DNA from: Eledone cirrhosa
Taxonomy: Eukaryota
NCBI GenBank assembly: GCA_964016885.1
Contig: OZ024746.1
Location: 44,702,001-44,766,000 of the forward strand
DNA: 64,000 nucleotides
Direction of reading: 5' to 3'
Below the pieces are notes generated by a model, which had not been told where the DNA came from, searched no databases, and saw only the letters and a list, made by a program, of their open reading frames with translations. Positions 17,763 through 61,809 of the stretch are shown here, in pieces. The first letter of the stretch is position 1, and each line of letters opens with the position of its first letter. A program made the translations under genes and the position numbers.

Positions 17763-17808
<46 letters not shown>

Positions 17809-19478: not shown

Positions 19479-20456
19479 CCCTCCGTCCCTTGTAGCCTCA
19501 GTACCACCACCCCTTTCCCCTAATCTATGATAGATTTGGCCGACTCCGCTTTTTATAGCAGATGTGTTAGACCCCGGATACTAGCCTTCTTATCCGATGG
19601 CCGCACCTTTTCCGTGCTTTCTATATTTCTTAGTGGTATCTTTGCTTTAATTTCTCGTATATCAGTATTTATTTATTTTTTATTTTATATATATATATTT
19701 TTTTTTTTTGGGGGGGGGGTCTGAATTAATTTTCCGTATCAAATTTTACATATACTTCGTACGAGCATTTATGTAGCTTGCACTAGAATTTTTGTAGCGT
19801 GGCGGCACCCCCCTTAGAGATAGTATTAGTATTCTTTTTCGGGATTCTGAATTATTATTTCGTATTAGTTTTTTTTTTTTTTGCACTGGGTGGTTGCTGG
19901 CCTTGTGCCTGGGGTAGAAACCTTTATTTCGTACTGGTCTCGGGACTCTGATTTATTATTTCGTGGTAGTTTCTTTAGTATTTTGGACCCCCACTTGTTG
20001 ACCCGTCACCGTAAGATAAATTCGGTTGTTTACTTATACCTTTTAAAAGGGTCTCATTATAATTCTGTCCCACCTAGTAAACCTTTCTTTAGTCTAGCCG
20101 TACTAGTGAGAGACTTGATAGCTGTCCTTAGTTTATAGTAACCAGAAATTGTTTTTTTCTTTACACTTAATTGTTTTTTAACACTCCCGGTATTTTTCTA
20201 TATATTTACCCCATATTCTTTTACTTATTGTTTCGACTTCCTCCCTCTCCCCCTAGTATCTTCTTTGACCTCCTTCCCAGCCGTAGTTGGCACTATCAAC
20301 GCACGACTGGGTTTCTTCCAGCCCCTCTGCCTCTTTCTTCTACTGGCAGGTTCAGCTACCCATTCCTTCCACAAATTGCCATGATAGAATTATTATGTCT
20401 CAACAACAAACTTTTGACGAATCCTTGTGACAATCACTTTTACCATATATGGAATT

Positions 20457-21747: not shown

Positions 21748-23895
21748 ACGAAACATAAGTCAATTGTATGAACTCATAATCCTTTATTTACTGCTATATA
21801 TATTTCGATGATAGCCAGTGAATGGCTATGACCTCATCAGGTAGTTAGTCAGTTCTTAGATGTGCTAGCTCTGTGTGATTAGTGCTGATGGTATCAGAGC
21901 CTTGGGACATATGAGCTTGTTAGGAATATTTTGATGTGTCAGCAGGAATAGTCTTGATTCTCATTGGTCAGTTTGTAGATGGTAGTAGGTTGGTATTTGA
22001 CCTCAAAGGGACAGGTGGATCTGTAAGGTTCAAACCGTCAGGCAAGATGACAATAGTTCCACATGACTGATTTTCACAAAAGGCATTCTTGGTCAGATAT
22101 ATTATCAAATAAGGTTAATAGTATGAAATAGATACTACAGGTCATTCTTAAATTGAGGAATTTATGTAGAGTTGTGCTACTGAAAATTATGGTTGGTGTA
22201 GAAAGTTTACAAATAAAAAGGCTTATGTAGGTTGGCTTGCCCTACACTCACACACACCTCCACAGACACACACACACTTCCACACATACAAAAAGTGGGG
22301 TGGTAATACTTAATATAAAGGTTAGAGTCCAATACTTAGATAGTTTAGAAAATTTAGAAATAAAACGTTTATGCAGGTTCACTTGTACATACACTCACAC
22401 TTACCCCCTCAAGCACTCACACATCTACACACACAAATCCATACAGGTGTGTATATATATATATGCATGTATGCATGTATGCACAAGTATACACATACAT
22501 ATATATATAAAATATACACATATATATATATATATAAGATATATATATACACAGAACATACATATATATAAAATATATACATACAAAAATATAAAAAATA
22601 TATATATACATAGAATACACACACACACACAAAATATATACACACGTAAAACATACATATATATATATAAAATACACACACACATACACATATATATATA
22701 TAAAATATATACATACAGATACGCACACATATATAAAAAATACGCATACATACACATAAAATACACATATATATGCACATGATACATATGTACCTATATA
22801 TATAAAATCAGGTTCAATACAACATTGTTTAGATGACTCCTAACCAGTAGAGGATCCGGTGGACAATCCACCATAGGGACCGCAAACCTGCGTGGTTATT
22901 GTTGTCCATTGGTCATTGGTACGGGGTGTAGGGGGGGGGGGGGCTTGTGGGAAGCCGTAACCGGGGTTTATCCATATAGCTTGAGGAAAGTTCCCGTCCT
23001 TAGGTGTCTGCAGGCACCGAATAAGTCGGCCCTTCTGTTTAATAGCTTGGTTCCGCCATGAAGAATCTCGAGTGTCTCACTAAGACAGAGGTTGCAAATA
23101 CCAGACCCGGCTCTGTCTGGGGGAACCTTTCTAACCAAGGACCAGACCAGAGAGTGCGGGGTTTTTGCAAGTTTGAGCTTCCAGATCAATTTAGAAAGGG
23201 CCGTACATTTCCTCTTATCTATTCTGTTAAAGGAATGGCGATGGTTATACCACCACGCTTTGAAGCTCGTCGCTGTGGATCATATGTAGTGGTACTCCGA
23301 GTTAGGGGTTGTGACCTTGCACCTGTAGACCACGTTTTTGGTCATGCATTCATTACTAAGGGGGCATAGTGATGGGTCTCTGTAATTACATGACTTCTTA
23401 AGCCCCACTACATGTACCGCCTGGTTATCATCACTCGGGATTGGCTGGGTAGCCTCCGCAATCAGCAGAGGGTCGTTGAGATCCGGTGTGCTAGTTGGGC
23501 CTGTCCGGGTTCCGATGCGTCCCGCGTGCTGGTTCTGTTGGGTGGCTCCGGGGTTTACGGTGGTATTAGAGGCAGTGAGCCTATTCCTATTTATGCCAGC
23601 TATGTGCTGGGCTACGGAGCGTGTGATTGAGTAGGAAAGTTTCACCGTGTGCCTGTTGAATATTGTATGGTACTTATGGTACTTATGGGCCCTAGGGAAA
23701 CATATATCCAGTACTCTAAAGAATGTTCTAGCCAGGCTGGTACGTAGACCCACCGAGTACGGAGGGTTATATCATGTGACCTTCCTGGTCCTATTCTTGC
23801 GGGGTTGTTGGATTTTCGCCGTGGGCCATCGCGTGGTTGTGCACAGCTCAGATCGAGCTCGGTTGGTGTCACTTGGGTGTGCGGAGCGGTCACTA
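21745..23895 (-). mobile_element. PLE locus 4: 5'-truncated element (linker + EN, 3' UTR, ribozyme) ending at (TA)n
   Basis: PPYS, FPRAHKYH, IFNRHTVKLSYS, SCNYRDPSLCPLSNEC, NVVY..YI, ICNLCLSE and ACRH at 22968-23800. Hammerhead near the 3' end. Confidence 0.85.
21790..21846 (-). ncRNA. Type I hammerhead ribozyme with canonical core
   Basis: Minus strand: actac-CTGATGA-GGTCATAGCCA-ttcac-TGGCTATCATC-GAAA-TATATATA-gcagt. Stem II is 10/11 paired and stem III is self-complementary. Confidence 0.8.
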
Positions 23896-23932: not shown

Positions 23933-24063
<131 letters not shown>

Positions 24064-24130
24064 AAAAATATGAAATCGAAAATGCAACTGGAATCTTATT
24101 TTTAAAAAAATATATATATTTATTTGGTTC

Positions 24131-24166
24131 CTTTACCGGTTTCGCAGTTCTTCTCCTTTTCAAAAG
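24131..24166 (-). ncRNA. Minimal hammerhead motif with UUGAAAA core (left arm)
   Basis: Reverse complement of 24248-24283. Confidence 0.6.
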
Positions 24167-24247
24167 TAGAGTTGAGATGGAGGGTCTGTGGTTTTTCTCA
24201 CATCTCTCAGATGTGAGAAAAACCACAGACCCTCCATCTCAACTCTA

Positions 24248-24283
24248 CTTTTGAAAAGGAGAAGAACTGCGAAACCGGTAAAG
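24248..24283 (+). ncRNA. Minimal hammerhead motif with UUGAAAA core (right arm)
   Basis: CTT-TTGAAAA-GGAG-aagaa-CTGC-GAAACCGGTA-AAG. The palindromic ACCGGT stem III is typical of dimerising PLE hammerheads. Confidence 0.6.
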
Positions 24284-25404
24284 GAACCAAATAAATATAT
24301 ATATTTTTTTAAAAATAAGATTCCAGTTGCATTTTCGATTTCATATTTTTTCGCTCTCTCTCTCTCTATCTATATATATATAATAATAATAAACATAGCG
24401 TAGTAGCGTAGACTTTACAATACAATGGGAGGAAACATAATAGTACCACTGATGTCGCAGATGTGTGGCGAAAGAACTTTGATAGGCTATATATATATAT
24501 ATATATATATATATCCAAAATTAAGTTAAGGTTGTCATGTCTGAGAGACATGCGCCATATTCACTGCAGAATAAGCTCAAAGATGCCAATGAATAGATCC
24601 GGGCATGTTATATCAACTAGAAGTAGATTGACGCATATATACATATAATAAACACATGAAACCATCTCAGGGAATAATTTGTAAAGTGTGTAAGCACACA
24701 TAGCTAGGTAGGTAACTAATTAAAGTTTAACTAGAATTTCAAATATAGATACCTTTTAAAATGATTAATCTCCTTTGTATATATTTCTTTAAATAAAAAA
24801 TATATTTCACCAATTAACCAGTAAATCACAGCGGTCAAATACGGATGGTCACCAAAGGAGAAGATCCAACCATCTGCATTTACACATCAAATGCAAATCT
24901 GTGAATGACTCGAACCACGTGTTGCATTTTATTAAAAAATACAGACATCGCTCCGCGTCATCCCAGTGGCGTGAATAGGATTTAATAGGTCTGTATTTTT
25001 TATAAAATGCAGGATGGTGGAAAATGCACCCATAAATTACCCCCCTCCCTCCCCCCACACACAAATAGACGGATCTGGTCTTACATCAAATATTACTTAG
25101 AACGTAAACCAACATACATCTAATGATATTAACTACACAACCACAACCTGCAAAATATTCGCTACCTTAGCTCAATTAAATGAAGTATCTAGCAATCATC
25201 AGTCTGTAACAATCTCCTCGATTGGTTTTATCATTGAAAATACACCCGCTACCAGCCGAGCACCAACTAATCTAATGCAAACAAACCTTCTATCTAACAA
25301 TTCTGTATCCATAATACCATTCCCAATTAGTAGCATTACCAACGAAGTTGACACTAATACAAGCAATGATACCATATTTGATAGTAAAAAAAATAATATT
25401 AATA

Positions 25405-25776
25405 ACATAAATAATTGTTTCTACTTTTGGCACAAGGCCAGCAATTACCCAGTACATTACTGGTACTTTATTTTATCGACTCCGTAAGGATGAAAGGCAA
25501 AGTGAACCTCGGCGGGATTTGAACTCAGACCGTAAAGGGACGTAACTATGCTGGAAAGCATGGCGTCCGACATAAATAATTGTTTCTACTTTAGGCACAG
25601 GCCAGCAATTTACCAGTGCATTACTGGTACTCTATTTTATCGACCCCGTAAGGATGAAAGGCAAAGTCAACCTCGGCGGGATTTGAACTCAGATTGTAAA
25701 GGGACGTAACTATGCTGGAAAGAATGGCGTCCGACTCTCTACCGATACTGGCAATCCACCGCCCGACATAAATAAT
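25405..25776 (-). mobile_element. Tandem pair of SINEs inserted in a PLE remnant, with triplicated 11-bp target
   Basis: ACATAAATAAT at 25405, 25570 and 25766. Confidence 0.88.
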
Positions 25777-26238
25777 AATCTTAGATTATATAACGCATCC
25801 CACACAAACCAATGCAACTGTAAAATTAAAGCTAACTGTCCCTTTAATGCCAATTGCTTAATTAGCGGTGTAGTATATAACTGTAAAGTAATTACTAAGG
25901 GCACTACACAATCCTACATAGGTGCTACCTCTAATTTATTTAAGAAAAGTTCCTATTCGCATACCTATTCTTTTAACAATACTAAATTATCTCACACCAC
26001 CTCACTAGCAGAAACTATTAACAATTTTTAAATGAAAGATATAGCATGCAGCCTAAAATGGAGTGTCCTGAAGAGAACTAATTCATATCAAGGTGAAAGA
26101 AGGGAGTGCCCATTATGTTCTCAGGAACTGTTCCAAATCATGGAATCTAAGGATAGGTTACTAAATAAAAAGCAGGAATTAATTATTTCATGTAATCATA
26201 ATATCGTGAACATTTTTAAGTACTATAAACCCACCTAA
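25777..26238 (+). pseudogene. PLE GIY-YIG endonuclease remnant related to 33814-35334
   Basis: QCNCKIKANCPFNANCL, VVY..SYIGATSN, ECPLCSQELF..LLNKKQELIISCNH..FKYYKP. One internal stop. Confidence 0.88.
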
Positions 26239-27299: not shown

Positions 27300-27482
27300 T
27301 TGGATTGGCAGTATCGGTAGAGGGTCGAACGCCATGCTTTCCAGCATAGTTACGTCCCTTTACGATCTGAGTTCAAATCCCGCCGAGGTTGACTTTGCCT
27401 TTCATCCTTACGGGGTCGATAAAATAAAGTACCAGTAATGCACTGGGTAATTGCTGGCCTTGTGCCTAAAGTAGAAACAATT
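27300..27482 (+). mobile_element. tRNA-derived SINE
   Basis: Nearly identical to the other copies. Confidence 0.9.
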
Positions 27483-29173
27483 AATAATTTCTTACTAAAA
27501 ATGAGCTTCATGAATAAAATAATGATGCAATTTAAAACAATCCCGATTTCAGTCCATAATGAAACAGGTTGAAATATTTAATGGCAACTTTTAAAATCTA
27601 CACACATTTAATAATAAATTAGATATTCAAATTCTCACCTATTATACACACAATGTTTTATCTTCTGACTGCGGTGTTCTACTTTGTGCAAACACATTAT
27701 AGTAAATGTTGCGCTGATATCTACTACAAAATGTTGCTTAAATTGACTTCTGACTCACTTCTATTTCATAAACGAATCAGACAAGAATATCGATACAGCT
27801 TAAGGGAATAAATATATGTACTTTCTTTCACTCGTTTTGCAGTGAAGCCATCTTATTTTAACCTTTGACCGTTTGATTGATCATTAAAAATAAACATCTC
27901 ATAGATTCAATTGATTTAATACATAAAACTTTGTCTATATTTAAAATACTTTTGATATTCTAAAATGAAGTTGTATTGAGTTGATTTCTAAACCCAACGA
28001 AAGCTACTGACATTTAACCCCTGAAAGCGTTTTTGGAGAATAGAAACGTTTTCAATATTCTTGCAAACAGAATAGAAATGCTATATTTAGTATCTTAAAA
28101 CTTTCATGTTTTCGCAATTTTGTTGCGTGCAAGCATTACTTATATTTATAAAACTTAAATACATTTAAATATGTTTAAATAGGTTGAATATATTATTTGA
28201 CTGGAATAAAAATCTTCATGTAGTTATGGAAACTACTAGATAAACATAAGCGATTTGAATCAAATCATTCTTATATTTTTTAATCATCCCCATAATTATT
28301 TTTTCTAAGCTTAAATTTATAGCAGAACAAGCGAGAGTATAGAAATTGAATGAAAATATCTGTTTACTCAATGATTATTAGCTAAGTAATAGTTGTTAAC
28401 AGTTGAACAACACTATTAATTAGCGATCTATATATTGATATACACAGAAATTACAATTTCTGAGAATTGCATTATCTTACACCAACATCCTTTAATAAGA
28501 ATATTTATTTCTGATTCGAGGAACTCTTCAATAGAGTTTTATCTAATTCAGCAAGTAATGACAAAGATACTAATGTATGGACTACGAAATATACATGCTA
28601 TTTTAGATTTGAGTGCTGTATTTCAATTGAGAGCTAAAAGCTTAGAGGTCAAATATATATTTTTTTAATAAGAATATAACTTTTTAAATGCATATTTAGT
28701 CAAATAATGATGCACACTTAGTCAAATAAAATATATAAATACAAACATATTTCAGATGTTCTCGGTAATAAAATGGACATTTTGCACCCAAAACATTAAT
28801 CTTTCAAATAAATAATATAATCATGAATATAATTTAAAGAGACTAAAAAGCAAAACAAGTGAAAACATTATTTTTATGGGAGGTATATTTGAGAATACTG
28901 AATTAAGCGTGAAAAAGATAGCGGCCAGCTAGCTACACATGACTGTTTCAAACGATCGAGTAACGTTATTTGTATTGCGATATGAAAATAGGGTATTCAG
29001 AAAGAAATATTGAATCAATAATAAAGCAATTAATTGGTCTGCCAGTTTGTAATGGGATAAATAAAACATGTTGAGAGTTTTATCTATATATGTTAAGTAA
29101 ATGTTATAGTCATATAGACAGAGACACGCAGACAGTATATGTGTATTTATATAGGCGTGTCTATATATTAATG

Positions 29174-29406
<233 letters not shown>

Positions 29407-29600
29407 GATAAATCTACCAAGAGTTTACGGTAGTGTCCAATCCGTATGAAGAACTCAATGTAATCCGGATATCATGGAAAGAAGAGATGCAATGAAAAAT
29501 CACTTTCGGTGAAAGATAAACGGAATACAGAGTCAAGATATAATATTAAAAAAATAATGAATAAAACAATGAAACAGTTCCTTATATTAAACAAAAAAAG

Positions 29601-29755
29601 TTCATTATTTAACGATCGTTTCTAGGATATATATGTGTTAGAATTGGCATGCATATTCAACAGATCTATGTACAAAATTATACAAAATTATACAAACTAT
29701 CAAAATTAAATATACATACCCAACACATATATATGCCGTCTTCAGAAATAATGAA
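29601..29755 (-). ncRNA. Type I hammerhead ribozyme (left arm)
   Basis: Reverse complement of 38637-38791. Confidence 0.8.
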
Positions 29756-30361
29756 ATATATTTATTGATAATAACAACAATTCAAAATTTCAGGTCCGTT
29801 TGGGAACAGAGTTCAAATTGACCAATGAGAATACAAACAATTTTATGCAGTTTGGTGTGTGTATATACATGTAATTAACTTCGTACACATATTTACATAA
29901 AGATATATGTTCACATGCATACGCATGCCAAAAAGATGTATGCAAATACAAAAATTCAAGGCTAATGTCTCTGTAAGTCTATAATCCACAGATAAAATGC
30001 GTATAGACACATAAATATGAAATAAATGTATACACACATTCATATACTCACACATATTCGTACACTCACACACACACGCGCGTATATGCATAAACATACA
30101 CATAACTACGAACATACATACACACACACACCCCCACACACATATATATGTGCATATAGTATTATCATAAGCATATGGACATTAATGCACGCACATAAAC
30201 ACTGCCACACATATTTAGATCAGGATACAGAAATTAGGTGGGAGGGGGGGAGAGGTCAGTATTCAACGGTTTCGGCAGACTGCCTATTTATAGATGTATC
30301 TATAAACTTAGAAATAAAAAGAAAAGAAAAAGAAAAAAGAAAAAAGAAATATATCAAGAAA

Positions 30362-30392
<31 letters not shown>

Positions 30393-30874
30393 CACACATA
30401 CACACACACACACACACACATATATATACATATACATATATATATACACATATATAAACACATACATATATATATACACATACATATACACATATATACA
30501 CACACACATATACACACACATATATATATATATATACACACATATACATACACACACATATATATATATAAACAAGTAAAATATAAAGTATATATCGATA
30601 TACATACATATAGACATATAAATAAATACACACGCATACACACACATACATATACATACATATACATACACATATATATAAACACATACATACACATACA
30701 TATACATACACATACCATATAAATACACATACACATACATAGACGCATACATATAGAGACACATACATATACACATATAAATACATAGACACATACACAC
30801 ATAAACACATATATATATATTTTTTTTTTTACACACATATACACATACACGCATACATATATATATATATACAC

Positions 30875-30927
<53 letters not shown>

Positions 30928-30987
30928 TATATACACTCACAACACTCGTATATATATACACACTCATACATATACACACATATACAT

Positions 30988-31048
<61 letters not shown>

Positions 31049-31193
31049 CATATATATACAGTCACACCTACATACATATATATATATAAATACACTCATA
31101 TATATACACACATACACATACATACCCACATATAAATATATATATATATATATATAAATATATATATATATACACACATACACACATACACAT

Positions 31194-31258
<65 letters not shown>

Positions 31259-31722
31259 TACATACACATACATACACATATACACACATACATATATATT
31301 CACACACACACACCTACACATACAAACACATACACATATATAAAGATATATATATACACACACACACAAACATATAATAAATATATATATATATATATAT
31401 ATACATATATATACATATACATATACATACATACATACATACATATACATACATATATATACACACATATACATACACACATACACACATACATACATAC
31501 ACACACACATACATACACACACATACATACTCATACATAGACATAGATATATACTCACACACACATACGCACTTACATATACGCATATATACAAATACAT
31601 ACACATCCATATATGCGTATATACATACAAACACCACTACACGCTCACACAACTCAGACATACAAAGAAAAAGGTATATACATATACATATATACACATA
31701 TAAATAGAGATACATATACACA

Positions 31723-31754
<32 letters not shown>

Positions 31755-31791
31755 CCCACACACACGTACAACTATAAACACACATACAAAC

Positions 31792-31826
<35 letters not shown>

Positions 31827-31839
31827 CACACACACAAAG

Positions 31840-31914
<75 letters not shown>

Positions 31915-32185
31915 TATACATACATACACATACACACACACACATATATAGACATGCACACACATACATACATACATACATACACATACACATACATATA
32001 TATAAAAAAAAAAAAAAATTAATACACACAGTCAGACAAATATGCACACACATACATATACATATATGTATATATATATATACACACACACACATACACA
32101 CACACACATACATATATATACACACATACATACACACACACATATATATATACATACATATACACACATCAACTACAAATATACA

Positions 32186-32218
<33 letters not shown>

Positions 32219-32528
32219 TATACATATTTTCACATATATATATATATACATATATTATATTATAATAATAAATAATATATATATATATATATACATATAT
32301 AGACATACATATATATACACACACACACACTCACATATATATGCGCACATACGTACACATATACACATACACACATATACACATAGACATATACATGTGC
32401 ATACATGTACATACGCACATATACCCACATAGATACAAAGATACACATATATATAGAGAGACATACATATACATACACATATATACACACACATACATAC
32501 ACACGTACATATATATACATACACGTAT

Positions 32529-32605
<77 letters not shown>

Positions 32606-33813
32606 TATACACACAATCATACACCCTTATTTGCATGCGCATATATGTATTTTTATACTTACAAATAAACACCCAAACATATATACACCTACCTACATAT
32701 ACATACATACATACACGCTTACAAATACAAATAATAATAGTAGGGGGGGAAAGGGTGGGGGGAGAAGGGGATTATAGTAAATATATGTTTCAAGAAACAT
32801 AGAATATTAATCTGTATTTGGATCTCAATATGTGTTTACATAGTTTCAGTATTAGGAAATGCAAGAAAGAAGGCAAAATTATGCATTTCAATATAAGTAT
32901 ACCATTAATTATAGGTTAACTAAACTAAAGATAGTTAATATATTGATTTCTAAGGTGTAAATTACTTAGGTTTATAATATTTGAAGCAGAATTTTGAAGT
33001 TAAATAGTAGTAGAGTATTAATTATAGTATAACTAAATTAAAATTATTAACGTTATGGTATCAATTTTAGGAAATGAATTTAGTAATAGGGAAAAAACAA
33101 ATAAAGTATTACATCGGTAGTAGAATATAAATTATAGGTTAACTAAATTAAAAATTATATATTAATTTCTATAGTATATGTTAATTAGGTATATAATAAA
33201 TAAAACAGATATTGTATTTTATCAATAGTAGAATATAATTATATGTAAACAGAAATTAAAATTAATACATACACATATACATATACATACATATATATAT
33301 ACACATATGTATACATACATACACATACACATATATACATACATATACATATTTTTTCAAAAATTGCAAAGAATATATTAACTATGTATACATCCAAAAC
33401 CCATCCCATTCTATGATTACATGACACTCTGCAATCCGTCTGTATTAGGATACTAATTTTAAGCCAATTAAATTAAATTTTTAGGTTGACCAAATTTAAA
33501 ACCAAATTATAAATATATTTCTAAAATGTATATTAATTAGGTCTATAATACTAAAAATTATTTCTCTGTCATTGAATACACGATATTTTGTTATATTTTA
33601 TCCGTAAAGGAATTTTAATAAAGGGTTAAATAAATTAAAATTAATCTATAAATTAAATTACTAAGTATATATTAGTAATATTTAAAGGTTTTTCACAATT
33701 TATGATTACACAATATTTTATATTCTCATCTGTAGTAGAATTTTAATTAAATTAAATTTATAGGTTAACTAACATTTAAATTAAATTATATATTAATTTC
33801 TAAAATAATGTTA

Positions 33814-35334
33814 TTAATTAGGTTTATAATATTTAAATGTTTTTTTTAGTTTATGATTACACGATATAATTAATTCCTGTCGTTTATTTAATAGGATATC
33901 CTTAGATTTCATTATTTCAAATAGTTCTTGGGAACATAATCTACATTCATTTCTATTATTTTGATAAGGGGTGGCTCTTTTGAGCACACTCCAGGTCAAA
34001 TCATATTCTATATTCTTATTTTTATAACTATTGATTTTTTCTGCTAGAGATGTTGTATTAGCCAGTGCGGCATTTTTAAAACTATGTTTGTGGGTATTAA
34101 ACCTTGTCTTAAAATTGTTAGAAGTAGCTCCTATATATGAGCAAATAGAATCTTTAGTTTTAACATTACATTTATAAACTATGTTGTTAACAAGACAATT
34201 TCCTTTTAATGGGCAGTTTGCTTTGTTTCTACAGTTACAACCTTTCGTTAATTCTGTATTTGAGGAGATATTATGGTTAGTTTGATGTATTGGTGGTATA
34301 CTTATGGTTTTCTTACATTTATATGCATTATAGGCACTTATATTTTGTTTTATGTTATTTGTTGTTGAGTATGAGAATTTAACTGTAGACCTATTTAAGA
34401 TTTGATGGTATTTGTGGTTTGGCGGGAAGTTTTTCTCTAGGATATAAAAAAATTTTTTAGCAATATTATCCTTAATTTGTAAATTAAATGGAGCATTATA
34501 CCAAGTAACCCGTCTATTACGGTTTCTATGTTGTTTATTATTTTTATTATTTTTATAGGTTGTATCGTGATGTTTACTAGGAGGATTAATGTTAATGATC
34601 TCACCACAACCATTTTTAGTTATATTTGTAGATTTAGGTGTTTTATCTTTTTTATTAGGAGTTTTATTATTAATATTTATTAGAGTTGTATGATGAGTAG
34701 TTTTTTGAGAGTTACTATATTTTATATTAGAAGATTTGGTATTTTGGGGTATAGTGTGGGTGGCATTTAGGTGTGTACTTTTCATTTGGTGTTTGTTGGT
34801 AATATTAGGTTGTATGTTTTTAGTATTTTTAGTAGAAGGTATATATTCTAATCTATTTTTGTGGCCACTTCTATCTAGAGCTTCGTTATAGAAGGTCGCA
34901 TTTTTATCAAATACATCTTGGTTAGAAGAAAGGTTAGAAATTCTAAGTGATATATTATATGCAAGGTTTTTAAGGATAGATTTAGGGTGATTAGATTGTG
35001 AGTGTATGTAATGTAAGTTTTGGTTGGGTTTATGGTAAGGTTGGTAGATACCCGTAGCTAAGTCTAAAGTTATATCTAGGAAATTTACTACTTTACTTGT
35101 TTTTTCAAAAGTAATATGAAGACTATAATAGTCTTTAAGGAAAGTTCTAATATGCTTTTTGTTTTTTTCTATTTCTGAAAGGCTAAGGTTGTTGGAAAGA
35201 AGAAGACAGTCATCACGATATAAACCACCTGTAAGGTGGGGAAAGGAGGCATTTATGTTGAAAAGGGGAAAGAGGCCCACAAGATCAGTAATTTGGGCGG
35301 AATCGCTTGAACCCATAGTAATATCAAAATTCAT
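33814..35334 (-). CDS. 5'-truncated PLE polyprotein: RT palm/thumb, long linker, CxC-X5-C-X5-C, GIY-YIG endonuclease (Hydra-clade-like)
   Basis: 506 codons with no stop: FDITMGSSDSAQITDLVG, GLYRDD, VNFLDITLDL, WYNAPF, GCNCRNKANCPLKGNCL, IVY..YIG, HKH, CRLC, CNH. The ATG comes from the inverted-arm junction, so the RT N-terminus is missing. Confidence 0.93.
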   Translation of the reverse strand: MNFDITMGSSDSAQITDLVGLFPLFNINASFPHLTGGLYRDDCLLLSNNLSLSEIEKNKKHIRTFLKDYYSLHITFEKTSKVVNFLDITLDLATGIYQPYHKPNQNLHYIHSQSNHPKSILKNLAYNISLRISNLSSNQDVFDKNATFYNEALDRSGHKNRLEYIPSTKNTKNIQPNITNKHQMKSTHLNATHTIPQNTKSSNIKYSNSQKTTHHTTLININNKTPNKKDKTPKSTNITKNGCGEIININPPSKHHDTTYKNNKNNKQHRNRNRRVTWYNAPFNLQIKDNIAKKFFYILEKNFPPNHKYHQILNRSTVKFSYSTTNNIKQNISAYNAYKCKKTISIPPIHQTNHNISSNTELTKGCNCRNKANCPLKGNCLVNNIVYKCNVKTKDSICSYIGATSNNFKTRFNTHKHSFKNAALANTTSLAEKINSYKNKNIEYDLTWSVLKRATPYQNNRNECRLCSQELFEIMKSKDILLNKRQELIISCNHKLKKTFKYYKPN

Positions 35335-35806
35335 TTCCTAAAATTGATACCATAACGTTAATAATTTTAATTTAGTTATACTATAATTAATACTCTACTA
35401 CTATTTAACTTCAAAATTCTGCTTCAAATATTATAAACCTAAGTAATTTACACCTTAGAAATCAATATATTAACTATCTTTAGTTTAGTTAACCTATAAT
35501 TAATGGTATACTTATATTGAAATGCATAATTTTGCCTTCTTTCTTGCATTTCCTAATACTGAAACTATGTAAACACATATTGAGATCCAAATACAGATTA
35601 ATATTCTATGTTTCTTGAAACATATATTTACTATAATCCCCTTCTCCCCCCCCCCCCCCTTTCCCCCCCTACTATTATTATTTGTATTTGTAAGCGTGTA
35701 TGTATGTATGTATATGTAGGTAGGTGTATATATGTTTGGGTGTTTATTTGTAAGTATAAAAATACATATATGCGCATGCAAATAAGGGTGTATGATTGTG
35801 TTTATA

Positions 35807-35871
<65 letters not shown>

Positions 35872-36183
35872 ATACGTGTATGTATATATATGTATGTGTG
35901 TATGTATGTGTGTGTATATATGTGTATGTATATGTATGTCTCTCTATATATATGTGTATCTTTGTATCTATGTGGGTATATGTGTGTATGTACATGTATG
36001 CACATGTATATGTCTATGTGTATATGTGTGTATGTGTATATGTGTACGTATGTGCGCATATATATGTGAGTGTGTGTGTGTGTATATATATGTATGTCTA
36101 TATATGTCTATATATATATATATATATTATTTATTATTATAATATAATATATGTATATATATATATATGTGAAAATATGTATA

Positions 36184-36216
<33 letters not shown>

Positions 36217-36483
36217 TGTATATTTGTAGTTGATGTGTGTATATGTATGTATATATATGTGTGTGTGTATGTATGTGTGTATATATATGTATGTGTGTGT
36301 GTGTATGTGTGTGTGTGTATATATATATATACATATATGTATATGTATGTGTGTGCATATTTGTCTGACTGTGTGTATTAATTTTTTTTTTTTTTTATAT
36401 ATATGTATGTGTATGTGTATGTATGTATGTATGTATGTGTGTGCATGTCTATATATGTGTGTGTGTATGTGTATGTATGTATA

Positions 36484-36531
<48 letters not shown>

Positions 36532-36565
36532 GATATATATATGTATGTGTGTCTTTGTGTGTGTG

Positions 36566-36596
<31 letters not shown>

Positions 36597-36633
36597 GTTT
36601 GTATGTGTGTTTATGGTTGTACGTGTGTGTGGG

Positions 36634-36669
<36 letters not shown>

Positions 36670-37131
36670 TATGTGTATATGTATCTCTATTTATATGTGT
36701 ATATATGTATATGTATATACCTTTTTCTTTGTATGTCTGAGTTGTGTGAGCGTGTAGTGGTGTTTGTATGTATATACGCATATATGGATATGTATGTATT
36801 TGTATATATGCGTATATGTAAGTGCGTATGTGTGTGTGAGTATATATCTATGTCTATGTATGAGTATGTATGTGTGTGTATGTATGTGTGTGTGTATGTA
36901 TGTGTGTATGTGTGTATGTATATGTGTGTATATATATGTATGTATATGTATGTATGTATGTATATATGTATGTATATGTATATATATGTATATATATATA
37001 TATATATATATTTATTATATGTGTGTGTGTGTGTGTATATATATATCTTTATATATGTGTATGTGTTTGTATGTGTAGGTGTGTGTGTGTGAATATATAT
37101 GTATGTGTGTATATGTGTATGTATGTGTATG

Positions 37132-37184
<53 letters not shown>

Positions 37185-37327
37185 ATGTGTATGTGTGTAT
37201 GTGTGTATATATATATATATTTATATATATATATATATATTTATATGTGGGTATGTATGTGTATGTGTGTATATATATGAGTGTATTTATATATATATAT
37301 GTATGTAGGTGTGACTGTATATATATG

Positions 37328-37384
<57 letters not shown>

Positions 37385-37444
37385 ATGTATATGTGTGTAT
37401 ATGTATGAGTGTGTATATATATACGAGTGTTGTGAGTGTATATA

Positions 37445-37488
<44 letters not shown>

Positions 37489-37836
37489 TGTATATATGTG
37501 TATATATATATATATGTATGCGTGTATGTGTATATGTGTGTAAAAAAAAAATATATTTAAATATATATATATATATGTGTTTATGTGTGTATGTGTCTAT
37601 GTATTTATATGTGTATATGTATGTGTCTCTATATGTATGCGTCTATGTATGTGTATGTGTATTTATATGGTATGTGTATGTATATGTATGTGTATGTATG
37701 TGTTTATATATATGTGTATGTATATGTATGTATATGTATGTGTGTGTATGCGTGTGTATTTATTTATATGTCTATATGTATGTATATCGATGTATACTTT
37801 ATATTTTACTTGTTTGTATATATATATGTGTGTGTA

Positions 37837-37867
<31 letters not shown>

Positions 37868-37992
37868 GTGTGTGTATATGTGTGTGTGTATATATGTGTA
37901 TATGTATGTGTATATATATATGTATGTGTGTATATATGTGTATATATATATGTATATGTATATATATGTGTGTGTGTGTGTGTGTATGTGTG

Positions 37993-38032
<40 letters not shown>

Positions 38033-38636
38033 CTTGATATATTTCTTTTTTCTTTTTTCTTTTTCTTTTCTTTTTATTTCTAAGTTTATAGATACATCTA
38101 TAAATAGGCAGTCTGCCGAAACCGTTGAATACTGACCTCTCCCCCCCCTCCCACCTAATTTCTGTATCCTGATCTAAATATGTGTGGCAGTGTTTATGTG
38201 CGTGCATTAATGTCCATATGCTTATGATAATACTATATGCACATATATATGTGTGTGGGGGTGTGTGTGTGTATGTATGTTCGTAGTTATGTGTATGTTT
38301 ATGCATATACGCGCGTGTGTGTTTGAGTGTACGAATATGTGTGAGTATATGAATGTGTGTATACATTTATTTCATATTTATGTGTCTATACGCATTTTAT
38401 CTGTGGATTATAGACTTACAGAGACATTAGCCTTGAATTTTTGTATTTGCATACATCTTTTTGGCATGCGTATGCATGTGAACATATATCTTTATGTAAA
38501 TATGTGTACGAAGTTAATTACATGTATATACACACACCAAACTGCATAAAATTTTTTGTATTCTCATTGGTCAATTTGAACTCTGTTCCCAAACGGACCT
38601 GAAATTTTGAATTGTTGTTATTATCAATAAATATAT

Positions 38637-38791
38637 TTCATTATTTCTGAAGACGGCATATATATGTGTTGGGTATGTATATTTAATTTTGATAGTTTGT
38701 ATAATTTTGTATAATTTTGTACATAGATCTGTTGAATATGCATGCCAATTCTAACACATATATATCCTAGAAACGATCGTTAAATAATGAA
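38637..38791 (+). ncRNA. Type I hammerhead ribozyme (right arm)
   Basis: Stem I TTCATTATTT/AAATAATGAA (10 bp), CTGAAGA core, stem II ATATATATGTGTTGG/CTAACACATATATAT, then GAAAC-GATC-GTT. Confidence 0.8.
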
Positions 38792-38846
38792 CTTTTTTTG
38801 TTTAATATAAGGAACTGTTTCATTGTTTTATTCATTATTTTTTTAA

Positions 38847-38925
<79 letters not shown>

Positions 38926-38971
38926 AAGGATACTATTTATGGTTATGTATATATATATATATATATGTGTG

Positions 38972-39462: not shown

Positions 39463-39820
39463 ATATTGTTATACTTTGGGAGGGTCATGTTGCCAATAAG
39501 AAACGCACGCACCAGATGTTTCACTTCAATTTATTATAATAAATTTATAAATTTAGGAACAGCAGTTCATGAACAGCAACATCACAACTTACAATTAAGG
39601 ACAAAATGAAAACACACACGCACATAGAACAAACAACCAACCAGTAACATGTGACGAAAGAACTTTGACAATATATAAACAACCATCTGGTTGTGGAACC
39701 AACCAACCAACCGGAAATTTATAAATTCCTAAATTTATAAATTTATTATAATAAATTGAAGTGAAAGCAACTGGTGCGTGTGTTTCTTATTGGCAACATG
39801 ACGCTCCCAAAGTATAACAA

Positions 39821-39823
<3 letters not shown>
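39463..39823. mobile_element. MITE-like element with ~97-bp TIRs
   Basis: 39463-39559 is inverted relative to 39726-39823. Confidence 0.8.
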
Positions 39824-48589: not shown

Positions 48590-51219
48590 TTAAGAGTTAA
48601 ACAAGATTCAATGAATACATCAAAGAATGAGTTTCATAATAAATTGTAAGCACTCTACAAGAAAAATATTTTCTAGAGTTATTAATATTAATTCAAAATA
48701 TTAACAAAATAGATATTCTTGTGATCAATTATATTTTATTATACATATTTCAGAGGTACTGAATTAAGTTCAACAGTACGTCCTCATCAATAAAATAAAA
48801 TGATACATGACATACCCTGACATGGTAGATGGTTAACATTTAATCAAAGTAGTGATTAACTTATGACAAAACTCAATATTTATATTGAGAACATGAGAAC
48901 ACGTAATACAAATAATAGAGAGAGCGTGAGTAATCTATTTTAAGAAATACATGACATCAATATAACAGTTATATAATTTTTAATTTTTAAAAACTACTAG
49001 AGAAAGAGGAGGGAAATGAAAGCATATAGGAAGAAACAGCTGATGTGATAACTTATTTAGTATTTAGCTTGAGAAGACAGATGAAAGATGATAAAAGAGA
49101 GAGAGAGAGACAAAGGCGAGTAATTTATGTTCAAGTTTCTACACACAGAGATTCTTATATAGTATAGTTGGCGTTAATTTTCAAAATATTTAATTTATGT
49201 TATTTCAGGGTAAAGAATCAAATTTTAAGTTTTAAAAGTTAATAGGTATTTGTATTAGTATTATAATATAATTATGTTAAATTTCTAAAATTCAAATTTT
49301 ATGAAAACAAATTTAAAGGATTTACGAACCCCGAGAAAGAAAGAAAATATATATATATAATGTTTTATATCCCCACGAGGGTAATCTTTACCAAAATTAC
49401 TAATAATATTAATTTCTTTTTTTATTTTTTTAAAATTTATAATGATTTCTTTATTTAACAACAGTTTCTATAATATATCTTATAAGATATTTATAGTTAT
49501 AACTATTAAAGAATTTATTGTTAAATAGTTTGAGTATCAACCGGCCTTATAATTAAACTTAAAGAAGTTAGAATTTTAAACTATATATATGTATTGATCA
49601 TAATATACCAACATTATAGTTTATTATTTGGTTATATATTGTATTAAGTAAATGATTATATAAGTTCGACCTTCCAGGGAAAACCAAATACTTATAATAA
49701 TACATAATGTCATTTGAGTGTTTAAATTATTTATAAATATAACTACGATTATGTTATTACACTAGATAAAGATATTTGTACAACCTATATATAGATATAA
49801 TTATAGGTATATGAAACGGTATACATTTAATAAAGAATAATAATTATAATCATTGTTAGTAATGCTATAATTGTAGTTTTACCTCCAGTTCAGTGGAGAG
49901 ATAGACCAATATTTGTCAGCTATTATGGTTTGTTAAATATACATAAAAAAACAAAGTGCTAATCCAACTTTCTGAGTCCCCCCAAACCATCTCAAATTGA
50001 GTAAAATATATATATATATAAAATATGCAAACGCATGAATGATCCACAGTTCAAATTATAATCAGTAAATTTACAGGTTAGATATCTAAACTATATATTT
50101 AAAACAGAGACAGAAAAATAAAGATCTGTATCAAAGTTAAAAATATCCAAAAAATCATAGGCTATGCATATCTATCAAGTAAACAAGTTATCAAACAAGT
50201 GTCATTCATTCGAACATTAATTCCATTATAAATAATTAGAAGATAGAGCATTATTAAAATTTTATAAACCGTTATGACTTATATATTCAACAGGTGATGA
50301 TGGACGTCGAAAATCAGGCTTGATTGCTTACTGTTTTTTCCTGACTTTTTGCGAGGCTTTATGAAGGCACTCAAACTATTTAACAATAAATTCTTTAATA
50401 GTTATAACTATAAATATCTTATAAATTATATTATAGAAACTGTTGTCAAATAAAGAAATCATTATAAATAAAAAAAAAATAAAGAAATAAATAAAGAAAT
50501 CAATATTATAAGTAATTTTGTTAAACATTACCTTCGTGGGGATATAAAACATTATATATATATTTTTTCTTTCTTTCTCGGGTTTCGAAAATCCTTTAAA
50601 TTTGTTTTCATAAAATTTGAATTTTAGAAATTTAACAAAATTATATTATAATACTAATACAAATACCTATTAACTTTTAAAACTTAAAATTTGATTCTTT
50701 ACCCTGAAATAACATAAATTAAATATTTTGAAAATTAACCGCCAACTATACTATATAAGAATCTCTGTGTGTAGAAACTTGAACATAAATTACACCCCTT
50801 TGTCTCTCTCTCTCTCTTTAATCATCTTTCATCCGTCTTCTCAAGCTAAATACTAAATAAGTTATCACATCAGCTGTTTCTTCCTATATGTTTTCCTTTC
50901 CCTCCTCTTCCTCTAGTAGTTTTTAAAAATTAAAAATTATATAATTGATGCCATGTATTTCTTAAAATATATTACTCACACTCTCTCTATTATTTGTATT
51001 ACGCTTTCTCATGTTCTCAATATTAGGGTATAAATATTGAGTTTTGTCATAAGTTAATCACTACCTTGATTAAATCTTAACCATCTACCATGTCAGGGTA
51101 TGTTATGTATCATTTTATTTTAGGTGAGGACGTACTGTTGAACTTAATTCAGTACCTTTGAAATATGTATAATAAAATATAATTGATCACAAGAATATCT
51201 ATTTTGTTAATATTTTGAA

Positions 51220-51228
<9 letters not shown>
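48590..51228. mobile_element. Non-coding head-to-head inverted repeat (~850-bp arms) in (TA)n, probably PLE-derived
   Basis: 48683-49535 is inverted relative to 50369-51228. Hammerhead relics lie near both outer ends. Confidence 0.8.
48732..48797 (-). ncRNA. Hammerhead relic (more degraded mirror copy at 51116-51179, + strand)
   Basis: TATTTTAT-TGATGA-GGAC-GTACTG...CAGTAC-CTCT-GAAA-TATGTATA-ATAAAATA. C3 is missing or replaced by U. Confidence 0.6.
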
Positions 51229-52299: not shown

Positions 52300-53050
52300 T
52301 TGCCAGTGACATGTATATATACATAACATCCCAGGAATATTTTTCAGGGCCGTTGACCATTACTTCCTCCCAACACATAGATCCCAGCAATTCTTCAATA
52401 AGCACGTGGTGAAGTTCTCTTTCTCAACAACATCGAATCTTGAGAGCGTGTTAATGGCCATCAACCGAAAAACGATTGGGAAATTTACTTCCTACGGTAG
52501 CCCTGACTCTGCACCGAACCAGCAACTCCGCGTTGCAAGCAGATAGGAAGTCCCAAACATCGGACGAACAACGACCAAGCAAACCATGCCACAGACCTTC
52601 CACAAACCCGCACCACAGAGCCGGCAGATACCCGTGTCCCCATGAATATGAAGTGCAACTGCAGATCCCGTACGGAGTGTCCTCTTCGAATTAACTGCTT
52701 GGTCTCTGGTCTCTGGTATCATGCGGAAAACAGGAGAAAATGTGTATACATAGGTGCAACCGGTGGAGATTTTAAATCCCGTTTCTATAAACATGCATGC
52801 TCCTTCAGAAATCGGCATACAAAATCGCAAACCAGTCTGTTCTCGCAGGTGTGGCCGCTTAAGGACGATAATATCACCTTTAGAACGGAATAGAACGTCA
52901 CAAGACGACAAACTCCGCTCCACTTAGGAGTATGATACTGCCGCTTATGCCTTGCGGAAGCTGTGGAAATAATAACATTGAAAAAACACGGTATAAACAC
53001 GAGGCCTGAAATCGTTATGAACTGTTTGCGTCAGCGAGTCCACCTGTTCG
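52300..53050 (+). pseudogene. Decayed PLE linker + GIY-YIG endonuclease
   Basis: FNKHVVKFSFSTT, KCNCRSRTECPLRINCL, VYIGATGGDFKSRFYKH and YCRLCLAEA, with stops. Confidence 0.8.
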
Positions 53051-53100
53051 GTTATATTAATATACCTATCTACATCAGACATTGGTAAAATCAGTAAAAT

Positions 53101-53289
53101 AATTGTTTCTACTTTAGGCACAAGGCCAGCAATTACCCAGTGCATTACTGGTACTTTATTTCATCGACCCCGTACGGATGAAAGGCAAAGTCAACCTCGG
53201 CGGGATTTGAACTCAGATCGTAAAGGGACGTAACTATGCTGGAAAGCATGGCGTCCGACCCTCTACCGATACTGCCAATCCACCGCCCT
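53101..53289 (-). mobile_element. Full-length tRNA-derived SINE
   Basis: Matches the family; AGTAAAAT occurs on both flanks. Confidence 0.9.
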
Positions 53290-54469: not shown

Positions 54470-56407
<1,938 letters not shown>

Positions 56408-57205: not shown

Positions 57206-58521
57206 TTTATATATATATATATGATGCAGTTCTTCACTTTTCGGTCCCGTAAAGTCTGTCAGGTGTCACAGCAGAGTTTTGAATTGCAGATCCTCCCAGA
57301 GCGCAATCATCGATATTCGTCTGCATTTGTTATCGATGATGTACATCCTAGCATAATGTTGGGTGACACAGCCCCTGCTGATATCTTTAGAACATTTTGT
57401 GCTTATATCAAAATATTGACGTGGAGAAAATGATTTGGAATGATTTCGCAGTTAGTGTGCTGAGGTTTTGTTAAACTATTTTATATTAATCGGTAGCTGC
57501 ATGTGTAGAGAACACAGTTTCTTTCATTGACTCAGCGAGCTAGGATTACTCAAGTAGGCTTAAATTAATCTTGATGTGATTATCTTCTTCTTATGAATCA
57601 GACAATCATATTTACACGGAGAATTTCATTAAATGTTGACGGATACAACTGCTCATGCATTGTCGAAAATGACAAATACATTTAAACTGCTAACGCATCA
57701 TTAAATACCCAGCTAATCGGAGATTTATCGTATTTTCTTCTAATCTGAGTAAGTAATCTCTGAGTATATTCATTGAAGGTGTTGTGACATGGAACCACTG
57801 CTTTGTGTTCCTCATAGTATAGTACCTTTTGTTTTTTTCCTTTCACTTACTCATATGTACAACAGGTATCTACCGATACAGAGTCTACAACGTGCTAGAA
57901 ATAGCAGCAGCCTCTCCATATAGTGAATCAGTATATAGGGTTGTATATACATACACACTTAGTAGTATACACCATTAAACGAACAATGTTGTTTGAGTTT
58001 ACATATTTAAGCATATACAAAAATGCACATTTCTATATAAATACGTACCTAGCCATACATATACTCAATCATACACACACACACATATATATTCACACAC
58101 ATTCACAGACATATACAAGATCTCCGTTTCACAGAACAGCCTGGAGAGAACCTGTAAATGGTAGGAGTGGAGCATCTATTCAGTGCGTTCGACAAAAATA
58201 TTCTAATCGTTGTGGTACGGGAAAATATATGAAAGTATATAATTTGTAATGAATATAAAATATGTTTGATACAACTCAAACAACAAGAATAAAATCAACA
58301 TATTAGGTGATACTTTACCTTACTCTTTGCTGCAAGCAAATGTAGTAAAGATAGTCTGAAAAAGAGTTCTTTATATAAGGAATATTTCACCTATATAACA
58401 TGATTCGTCCTTTTGTTTGGTTTGAAATTAAAGAGTTGTTTCATGTTACGTAATAAAAAATACACATTATTTTATTGATCGCAAATAAAATGAACAGCAA
58501 CAGCTCAACAGCTGACATTAT

Positions 58522-58706
58522 CGGTGGATTGGCAGTATCGGTAGAGAGTCGGACGCCATGCTTTCCGGCGTAGTTACGTCCCTTTACGGTCTGAGTTCAA
58601 ATCCCGCCGAGGTTGACTTTACCTTTCATCCTTACGGGGTCGATAAAATAAAGTACCAGTAATGCACTGGGTAATTGCTGGCCTCGTGCCAAAAGTAGAA
58701 ACAATT
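58522..58706 (+). mobile_element. tRNA-derived SINE
   Basis: Matches the family. Confidence 0.9.
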
Positions 58707-59339
58707 ATAGCATATATAAGTTATGAAACAAAAAAACAAACTGACATTTGAAATCACTTTAAAACTTTTCATATTTTGTATTTACACAATCCATGGAACA
58801 TTTGCAGATGTTTAATTTTTATATATTTGTTTTCTGTAAATCCTCTGTATTTTACATTTGTCAGTATCAGCTGTTACCTGTACAATTACATAATGAAAAG
58901 GCAGATAGTACGGAAAAAATAACTTGTAATATATAGTTACGGTCCTTTGTGTCCTAAGTTCAAATCTCTATGTGGTCTACATGGCCTTATATTCTTTCAT
59001 GGTTAATGAAATAAATTTGCGGCCAAATATTGTTTTACATTTGATTGTTGATAGTTTCCCACACGATTTATGTGTTTGACCCTATATTATAAATTAATAC
59101 ATATAGGAATCAAAGCAGCAAATTGGCGCATATTTTAAAGCGTCGGAAGATAACATTTCCAATAGTTACAGCTCTTTTGAGTTCATTCTTCCAAAGATCA
59201 CTATTTCAAAGCCATCTAAAAAGCACAGTTTCATTTCGATAATTATGTAATGGTGTGCTTCTGAAATAAATTAAAAGCCGTAAGAGACAGAAACCATAAT
59301 TTAACCGAACAGCTCATGGGAGGAAACATATTTCAAGTA

Positions 59340-61711: not shown

Positions 61712-61809
61712 GCATATGATGTCTTTCCTTTTATCAGCAGACCTGGATTTCTTGCAAAACAGGCCCCGTCGTTCCTTGTCCTAACGAAAATCGCCATACT
61801 TACATCAAT

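What the first reader, a model, noticed from the sequence alone, without database searches (positions are those of the whole stretch)
38637..38791. Hammerhead with microsatellite-built stem II and a C-A mismatch in UAG context
Perfect 10-bp stem I, canonical CUGAAGA core and a palindromic GAUC loop III. Stem II is a 15-bp helix of (AU)n(GU)n sequence with a large loop. In both arms the pair closing the core is C38654 opposite A38769, and that A is in a UAG triplet next to a long helix, a preferred ADAR context. Speculatively, A-to-I editing could repair the pair and tune cleavage.
Basis: partly seen in the sequence, partly recalled or inferred. Interest (0 to 1): 0.7.

Follow-up and report, generated by a model that had tools for sequence, protein, structure and literature searches.

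The report
Edited hammerhead of a Penelope transposon
This is the predicted self-cutting RNA motif carried by a young jumping gene present in about ten thousand copies; the odd C-A pair is normal for the family, and the host's RNA-editing enzyme likely does change that A, but likely together with neighbouring catalytic bases, so the edit more likely disables than repairs the motif.

Summary
The motif is real: a dimer-type type I hammerhead at the end of a 5'-truncated, fold-back insertion of a Hydra-like Penelope retroelement; an identical copy lies at 29601-29755 (-). About 10,000 copies exist. C38654/A38769 is the family consensus (A in 9,879 of 9,928 pattern matches) and is kept in a sister family with a different stem II. 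Mismatches at this position are usual in published Hydra hammerheads (15 of 25). Stem II is a predicted 44-bp rod, not 15 bp with a big loop. Editing of A38769 has support: G appears in one likely-RNA run (kind not on record) but not in a DNA-like run, and in genomic copies that carry A-to-G bursts. It is not selective: the invariant core A15.1 (38773) changes as often in that run, and all six heavily edited genomic copies with G38769 also have G at A15.1. Editing would give C-I, not the canonical G-C. Best reading: an ordinary, slow transposon ribozyme under promiscuous ADAR editing. An editing switch stays possible (about 10%): a predicted alternative fold hides the core and is lost when A38769 is read as G. 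The scan noted such editing fossils before, on other pieces of this genome and in other genomes.

The parts
38637..38791 (+). Type I hammerhead, dimer type, at the outer end of the inverted arm (strand opposite to the ORF)
38637..38646 (+). Stem I 5' strand, pairs with 38782-38791; also a hot spot of 5' junctions in fold-back copies
38647..38653 (+). Core C3-A9 (CUGAAGA)
38654..38654 (+). C10.1, opposite A11.1; family consensus
38655..38768 (+). Stem II, predicted 44-bp rod with a 5-nt bulge; likely ADAR substrate
38769..38769 (+). A11.1 in UAG; A in 9,879 of 9,928 genomic matches; G in run X5 and in hyper-edited genomic copies
38770..38781 (+). G12-A15.1, palindrome ACGAUCGU (38773-38780), U17; predicted cut after 38781; A15.1 also edited
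29601..29755 (-). Identical hammerhead in the sense (ORF-strand) 3' pseudo-LTR
29404..29537 (-). Tail: element sequence present at one end only
29538..33081 (-). Left arm of the 3.5-kb inverted repeat (3' UTR, pseudo-LTR), 97% identical to the right arm
35327..38855 (+). Right, inverted arm
33814..35337 (-). 5'-truncated ORF, 507 aa open: RT half (GLYRDD), CxCx5C linker, GIY-YIG-type endonuclease
35803..38029 (.). 2.2-kb TA/TG array inside the 3' UTR (mirror at 30362-32609); shared with other copies
38846..38966 (.). (TA)n target flank (other flank 29162-29403)

Best explanation
The motif is the consensus hammerhead of a young, roughly 10,000-copy Penelope-like retroelement with Hydra-clade protein motifs, predicted to cut slowly and only as a dimer, and its C-A pair is a tolerated family trait whose A is likely edited by ADAR as one of many sites rather than selectively repaired. 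Shown: the anatomy, the copy number, the consensus C.A, and A-to-G changes at 38769 together with A15.1 and other sites. Inferred: full-length tandem copies carry two hammerheads 7,079 nt apart; their ACGAUCGU palindromes would pair to form a stable stem III and cut after U38781, releasing unit-length RNA. Copies that hold both sides of the cut site must come from uncut or re-ligated RNA, so a weak ribozyme is tolerated. ADAR likely acts on the 44-bp stem II rod and on the near-perfect duplexes made by fold-back insertions such as this one; the net effect on heavily edited molecules would be loss of the core.
For: Fold-back insertion with tail, ORF and (TA)n flanks. Full-length copy with an 813-aa ORF and direct pseudo-LTRs. 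8,604 and 9,879 exact motif matches, controls 0. Non-A at 11.1: 49 copies, of which G 15, C 8, T 26. Sister family: 94 of the first 100 of 641 matches have A there; C10.1 in all 8 copies with a core, A11.1 in 7 of these 8. Published Hydra hammerheads: U.U 14, U.C 1, G-C 7, G.U 3 of 25; C.A in Chara PLE-X1 (my count). Natural U10.1.U11.1 hammerheads cleave (PMC3088659). Run X5 against X1: A38769>G depth 415.7/2470.8 in 23 contigs against 0/962,427; A38773>G 527/2,632 against 38/995,313; A38748>G 364/1,068 against 0; A>G places 17 against 6, T>C 7 against 5. X5 against X2: A>G 13 against 6, T>C 9 against 7. Genomic copies: 6 of 23 arms with G11.1 also have G15.1, expected 0.065, P about 5e-11; these carry 10-25 A>G per arm; two have a partner arm with 32 and 16 T>C. 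Changing A14 or A15.1 lowers activity more than 100-fold (PMC4075628; not measured for inosine).
Against: No cleavage assay. X5 is not on record as RNA, comes from another sample than X1/X2, is one run, and contig depths are not editing levels; the 38769 row was hidden. C.A is conserved between sister families whose proximal stem II differs wholesale, which is also what a selected editing site would look like. 17 of 23 arms with G11.1 keep an intact GAAA, and two insertions carry G11.1 in both arms with GAAA intact (L140, L152), so molecules changed only at A11.1 existed. The X5 excess is on the sense strand only, which fits the element's own fold better than fold-back duplexes. No tree with Hydra reference proteins was built; Pfam does not recognise the 813-aa ORF.
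Confidence: 0.68

Rival explanations
1. Editing switch: the RNA rests in an inactive fold in which UUUCUG (38644-38649) pairs with UAGAAA (38768-38773) and hides the core; selective ADAR editing of A38769 breaks that fold, makes a C-I pair and licenses cleavage.
For: The alternative fold is predicted slightly more stable than the hammerhead fold (-45.5 against -44.6 kcal/mol at 37 C). Reading A38769 as G drops its central pair from 0.23 to 0.006 and gives C-G 0.84 at 20 C. The sister family keeps the same complement, with CAGAAA. G at 38769 in X5. Copies L140 and L152 have G11.1 in both arms with an intact GAAA.
Against: A15.1 is changed as often in X5 and in all 6 hyper-edited G11.1 copies. 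The A15.1-U16.1 pair does not become more likely in the model (0.09 to 0.05). The UUUC/GAAA complement follows automatically from a U-rich stem I. Uneditable U.U is the clade's usual state. UAG is not conserved: CAG in the sister family. Inosine was approximated by G.
Confidence: 0.1
2. The hammerhead no longer cuts at a useful rate. The conserved rod and core serve as an RNA signal for the element's RT/endonuclease or for joining the inverted arms; editing has no consequence.
For: Fails the strict 10.1-11.1 filter of PMC3088659; no Rfam hit. In the anole Poseidon element, hammerhead mutants do not affect insertion in vitro and no reads ended at the cut site (PMC11167929). Inversion junctions cluster at the stem I 5' strand.
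Against: Core, H17 (U or A, never G in the alignment), palindrome and stem I pairing are kept across subfamilies and the sister family.
Confidence: 0.15
3. The A-to-G differences in run X5 are alleles or one over-represented copy, and A38769 is hardly edited in living tissue.
For: Run kind not on record, other sample than the DNA-like runs, one study.
Against: The differences with many contigs found only in X5 are all A>G among the rows shown. Genomic G is 15 of 9,928. The same sites recur in hyper-edited genomic copies, which do not depend on X5.
Confidence: 0.07

Closest known systems
Hydra-clade Penelope-like elements and their hammerheads, incl. Hydra-1_Obim of Octopus bimaculoides (Craig et al. 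2021, PMC8557442; section 11, passages, part 2 of 59 of the supplement)
   Same: C-terminal endonuclease, DKT, RW[K/R], CxCx5C linker, CxxC and CxH around E and N, (TA)n targets, a type I hammerhead near the 3' end that often has a mismatch at 10.1/11.1.
   Different: Unit 7.08 kb with a 4.1-kb 3' UTR (published: mostly under 3 kb). Stem II region 116 nt, predicted 44 bp (published: 3-7 bp). C.A instead of U.U. The hammerhead differs from that of Hydra-1_Obim, so this is another family.
Dimer-type PLE hammerheads with a small palindromic helix III (Cervera and de la Pena 2014, PMC4209133; parts 1-2 of 4)
   Same: Type I, in pseudo-LTRs, palindromic 15.2-16.2/loop 3, often as close pairs on opposite strands; low activity expected.
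   Different: No G10.1-C11.1, long stem I (10 bp), very long stem II.
PLE-X1_cBra hammerhead of Chara braunii (PMC8557442 supplement S2)
   Same: C after CUGAUGA and A before GAA: the same C.A.
   Different: EN-less element of an alga, 6-bp stem II; ADAR is recalled, not tested, to be absent there.
ADAR hyper-editing of repeat dsRNA (Porath et al. 2017, PMC5625713; passages)
   Same: Clustered A-to-G in inverted or self-folding repeats; octopus has the strongest signal; lizard Penelope is heavily edited.
   Different: Here the edited bases include a ribozyme core, and edited RNAs were likely copied back into the genome.
Engineered editing-dependent hammerheads (Fukuda et al., PMC3923133; passages)
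   Same: A C placed opposite an editable A makes cleavage depend on editing.
   Different: Artificial, trans-acting, other position; no natural case found in searches.

Membership tests
Type I hammerhead ribozyme | Core C3 U4 G5 A6 N7 G8 A9, G12 A13 A14, A15.1-U16.1, H17 | tested here: met
   invariant in alignment A2
Type I hammerhead ribozyme | Three stems round the core, stem I open | tested here: met
   (96.9% of cells paired, 8 cells changed on both sides, 0 of 500 shuffles; 25 of 41 distinct copies, all related)
Type I hammerhead ribozyme | Standard pair at 10.1-11.1 (usually G-C; natural exceptions cleave) | tested here: not met
   C.A. Strict filter of PMC3088659 would reject it until activity is measured; the same paper reports active U.U. 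Filed therefore as a variant that likely works like a hammerhead.
Type I hammerhead ribozyme | Rfam hammerhead model at gathering score | tested here: not met
   the 116-nt stem II region is a likely cause (not tested)
Type I hammerhead ribozyme | Self-cleavage after H17 | not testable with these tools
   needs an assay or raw RNA ends; only contigs were served
Dimer-type PLE hammerhead | Short stem III with palindromic loop; located in pseudo-LTRs of tandem copies | tested here: met
   ACGAUCGU; two copies 7,079 nt apart round an intact ORF
Hydra-clade PLE | RT followed by C-terminal GIY-YIG endonuclease | tested here: met
   GLYRDD at 344, YIG at 707; motif level only, Pfam gives no hit on this ORF, weak GIY-YIG hits on relatives
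Hydra-clade PLE | RWK and DKT motifs, CxCx5C linker, CxxC and CxH round E and N | tested here: met
   RWR 37, DKT 115, CNCRNKANC 673, CNH 799; CRLC..E in the translation; definitions
Hydra-clade PLE | Insertion into (TA)n; pseudo-LTRs, inverted 5'-truncated arm, tail | tested here: met
Hydra-clade PLE | No CCHH motif in the endonuclease | tested here: inconclusive
   none evident by eye; no alignment with reference endonucleases
Hydra-clade PLE | Placement with Hydra RTs in a tree | not tested
   reference proteins not available as tool sequences; 107 unnamed homologues at 31-47% identity
Site-selective functional ADAR site | Edited far above its neighbours, conserved context, changes function | tested here: not met
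   neighbours changed as often or more; co-edited with the core; UAG becomes CAG in the sister family; function untested

The most novel reading that the evidence does not exclude
A natural ribozyme under host editing control: one ADAR edit at A11.1 releases the core from an inhibitory hairpin and speeds cleavage, while heavier editing that reaches A13-A15.1 kills it, so that the ADAR level of a tissue sets whether the transposon RNA is cut or stays available for reverse transcription.
Probability: 0.1. Interest if true: 0.85.

Novelty: new variant of a known kind. Interest (0 to 1): 0.45.

Why it matters
The role of hammerheads in Penelope elements is an open question (PMC8557442, PMC11167929). 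This family gives a direct handle: about 10,000 near-identical copies, an unusually long ADAR-sized stem II, and editing marks in the catalytic core both in a likely-RNA run and fixed in genomic copies. If editing mainly kills the core, it is a host effect on a transposon ribozyme, and the edited insertions show that cleavage at this site is not needed for insertion. If the single A11.1 edit activates, it would be a natural editing-gated ribozyme; searches found no such case in the held library.

Tried and rejected
Rfam scan: no hit. Pfam: no hit above cut-off for the window ORF or the 813-aa ORF. Search for RNA runs: no RNA holder listed; six runs of unrecorded kind. Runs X4 and X6 had too little cover (4 and 11 contigs). 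The second lay showed no GT..AG joint in the 5' UTR, so it did not prove that X5 is RNA, and the 38769 row was among 18 hidden rows. Depth ratios round the cut site were not used: contig depth cannot show ends or levels. I first read the sense-only A>G in X5 as proof that only the element's own rod is the substrate; copies L147 and L155, with T>C in the partner arm, show that fold-back duplexes are edited too. 'Microsatellite-built stem II' as a design: rejected, the sister family has a G/C helix there. Excess of genomic G at 11.1 as a sign of selection for the repaired pair: none, G 15 against T 26. L137 was flagged hyper-edited but dropped (2 A>G in 38637-38854). Classic kinetic papers on 10.1-11.1 inversion and on inosine 15.1 were not held; those points rest on recall and. 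Luense et al. 2017 on dimer cleavage was not read; one search listed only papers that hold its title phrase. Sequence look-up in earlier findings gave nothing.

Full report
Observation. The region folds far better than shuffles (z -5.72, 0 of 200). One detail is wrong: the 'large loop' is mostly paired, and stem II is a predicted 44-bp rod with a 5-nt bulge. On 25 of 41 distinct copies, chosen by hand for diversity and including copies found by a non-A at 11.1, 96.9% of cells pair and 8 cells change on both sides (0 of 500 shuffles). The copies are related, so this is modest support. Rfam has no match at gathering score.

Context. The motif ends one arm of a 3.5-kb, 97% identical inverted repeat (29538-33081 and 35327-38855) around a 507-aa 5'-truncated ORF on the minus strand. 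There is a 134-nt tail at one end and (TA)n at both. A full-length copy elsewhere in the genome has an 813-aa ORF between two hammerheads 7,079 nt apart, with RWR, DKT, GLYRDD, CxCx5C, YIG and CxH motifs. These match the Hydra clade as defined in PMC8557442 (section 11 read); no tree was built. The family is young and large: 40 of 170 candidates scored, all about 100% identical; 8,604 and 9,879 exact motif matches, controls 0. Among the first 100 matches, 34 of 42 close neighbour pairs are fold-back pairs. No tool named the host; an octopod is inferred from earlier AI notes on this genome and from recall of its SINE.

Is C.A special? It is the consensus: A in 9,879 copies, G 15, C 8, T 26 (letters counted from the listing). 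A sister family of 641 matches has a different proximal stem II but keeps A11.1 in 94 of the first 100, in CAG context; C10.1 is present in all 8 fetched copies with a core, A11.1 in 7 of them. Other hammerheads of this genome show U-A, U.U, A-U and A.A there, and two in the window show U.U. In the supplement of PMC8557442 (part 2 of 59 read) I count U.U in 14, U.C in 1, G-C in 7 and G.U in 3 of 25 Hydra families, and C.A in Chara PLE-X1. PMC3088659 (passages) reports that U10.1.U11.1 supports cleavage. A mismatch here is thus normal for the clade and mostly of a kind that editing cannot mend. Editing of A38769 would make C-I, the inverse of the conserved G10.1-C11.1 (PMC4209133, parts 1-2 of 4 read); that the inverse pair is slower is recalled, the paper was not held.

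Is A38769 edited? Probably yes. No run is on record as RNA. Run X5 (88 million letters of contigs) has G at 38769 with depth 415.7 of 2,470.8 in 23 contigs; X1 (1,428 million letters, DNA-like) has 0 of 962,427. X5 has 17 A>G places against 6 in X1 and 7 T>C against 5; against X2 on an overlapping, longer stretch, 13 against 6 and 9 against 7. X5 is one run from another sample, its depths are not editing levels, 10 and 18 rows were hidden, and the 38769 row was not shown. An independent test came from a lead in earlier AI notes. Patterns that allow further A-to-G found 23 arms (20 insertions after removing 3 arms' double listing is 21 places at most; L141 and L153 are partner arms) with G at 11.1 and 28 arms with G at 15.1. 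Six arms have both, against 0.065 expected (P about 5e-11, arms treated as independent). These six carry 10-25 A>G in 38637-38854. Two have a partner arm with 32 and 16 T>C, and in L147 the unpaired tail has none, as if a whole fold-back RNA had been edited and copied back; one (L143) has the same changes in both arms.

Is it a selective repair? The evidence says no. In X5, A15.1 (38773) shows 527 of 2,632, A38748 364 of 1,068, A38686 98 of 237, A38762 173 of 969: A38769 is not the top site. In both searches every heavily edited copy has both G11.1 and G15.1 (6 of 6), four of them also A14. Changes at A14 and A15.1 lower activity more than 100-fold (PMC4075628, passage) or at least 10-fold at 15.1/16.1; inosine itself was not covered by what I could read. 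Against my reading: 17 of the 23 G11.1 arms keep GAAA, and L140 and L152 carry G11.1 in both arms, so singly changed templates existed; L177 shows the same for A15.1 alone. C.A has also been kept over the split of two families. Hyper-editing of repeats is known, strongest in octopus, and lizard Penelope is heavily edited (PMC5625713, passages). ADAR prefers UAG-type triplets but edits poorly at stem borders (PMC3113232, passages).

Mechanism. Inferred: tandem master copies give RNA with two hammerheads whose palindromes pair into a stable stem III (dimer model of PMC4209133), with slow cutting after U38781. Every genomic copy that holds sequence on both sides of the cut came from uncut or re-ligated RNA, in line with the anole element, where unprocessed RNA is the main template (PMC11167929, part 1 of 4 and passages). 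A weak base of stem II costs the element little. ADAR likely edits the rod and the fold-back duplexes broadly; heavy editing would destroy the core. The bold alternative rests: a fold that pairs 38644-38649 with 38768-38773 is predicted about 1 kcal/mol more stable than the hammerhead fold and vanishes when A38769 is read as G (0.23 to 0.006), but stem III does not gain (0.09 to 0.05) and the same fold is also weakened by the A15.1 change (0.074). I give it 10%.

Novelty. The element and its ribozyme are of a known kind; an octopus Hydra element with another hammerhead is published. New against what I read: the 116-nt stem II region, the 7-kb unit, and editing marks in the catalytic core. Searches found no natural editing-controlled hammerhead in the held library, which lacks most subscription papers. 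PMC7229834 (passages) only names editing as a possible cause of retrozyme heterogeneity. Also seen without effect on the verdict: bioRxiv 10.64898/2026.07.22.740005 (part 1 of 5), PMC11300833, PMC544870 and PMC3923133 (passages). Supplements of the other papers were not read and may list similar long stem II variants. The scan had already noted editing fossils in Penelope copies of this genome and others.

Noticed in passing
window 38640-38643; loci L078, L089, L098, L054, L103: Fold-back junctions cluster at the stem I 5' strand: 13 of 34 inverted pairs have motifs 260-300 bp apart, and 7 of 15 distinct upstream contexts end within 12 nt of the core. This is not the cut site; cause unexplained.
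   Followed up: partly
L147 (G000:C4:21004123-21007147), L155 (G000:C12:32422797-32425821): Whole fold-back insertions with A>G in one arm (24, 25) and T>C in the other (32, 16), tail unchanged in L147: likely an edited hairpin RNA copied back as a unit.
   Followed up: partly
L143, L140, L152, L177: A>G changes identical in both arms, which suggests that both arms are copied from one template RNA.
   Followed up: partly
window 30362-32609 and 35803-38029; L134:4516-8659: The family's 4.1-kb 3' UTR holds a 2.2-kb TA/TG array; the unit is 7.08 kb, far longer than published Hydra elements.
   Followed up: partly
window 1436 (-) and 56832 (-): Two small hammerheads of another family with U.U at 10.1/11.1 and a CUAG palindrome.
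   Followed up: no
window 17350-20097, 48683-51228, 24043-24371, 39463-39823, 61712-62086: Further inverted repeats; ORF pieces with GLYRDD or CxCx5C at 18949-19497, 22968-23771, 25687-26031, 52507-52893, 55332-55916: several more Penelope-like insertions.
   Followed up: no
window 14864-15267, 25405-25764, 27301-27489, 53097-53289, 58519-58708, 59365-59556, 9067-9264: About ten copies of a 190-bp SINE-like repeat; recalled as an octopus SINE, not tested.
   Followed up: no
L033/L034 (G000:C3:142268001-142288000): Another Penelope-type element with a 1,217-aa stop-to-stop frame, in tandem and inverted, lies between two arms of this family.
   Followed up: no
genomic copies, position equal to 38769: T (26) is commoner than G (15) among non-A copies, the reverse of the usual transition bias seen at A15.1 (G 20, T 6, C 7).
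   Followed up: no
stem II position 4 (38657/38766): A C.C mismatch or bulge at the fourth position recurs in the sister family and in a CUGAGGA family; a tertiary contact is possible.
   Followed up: no
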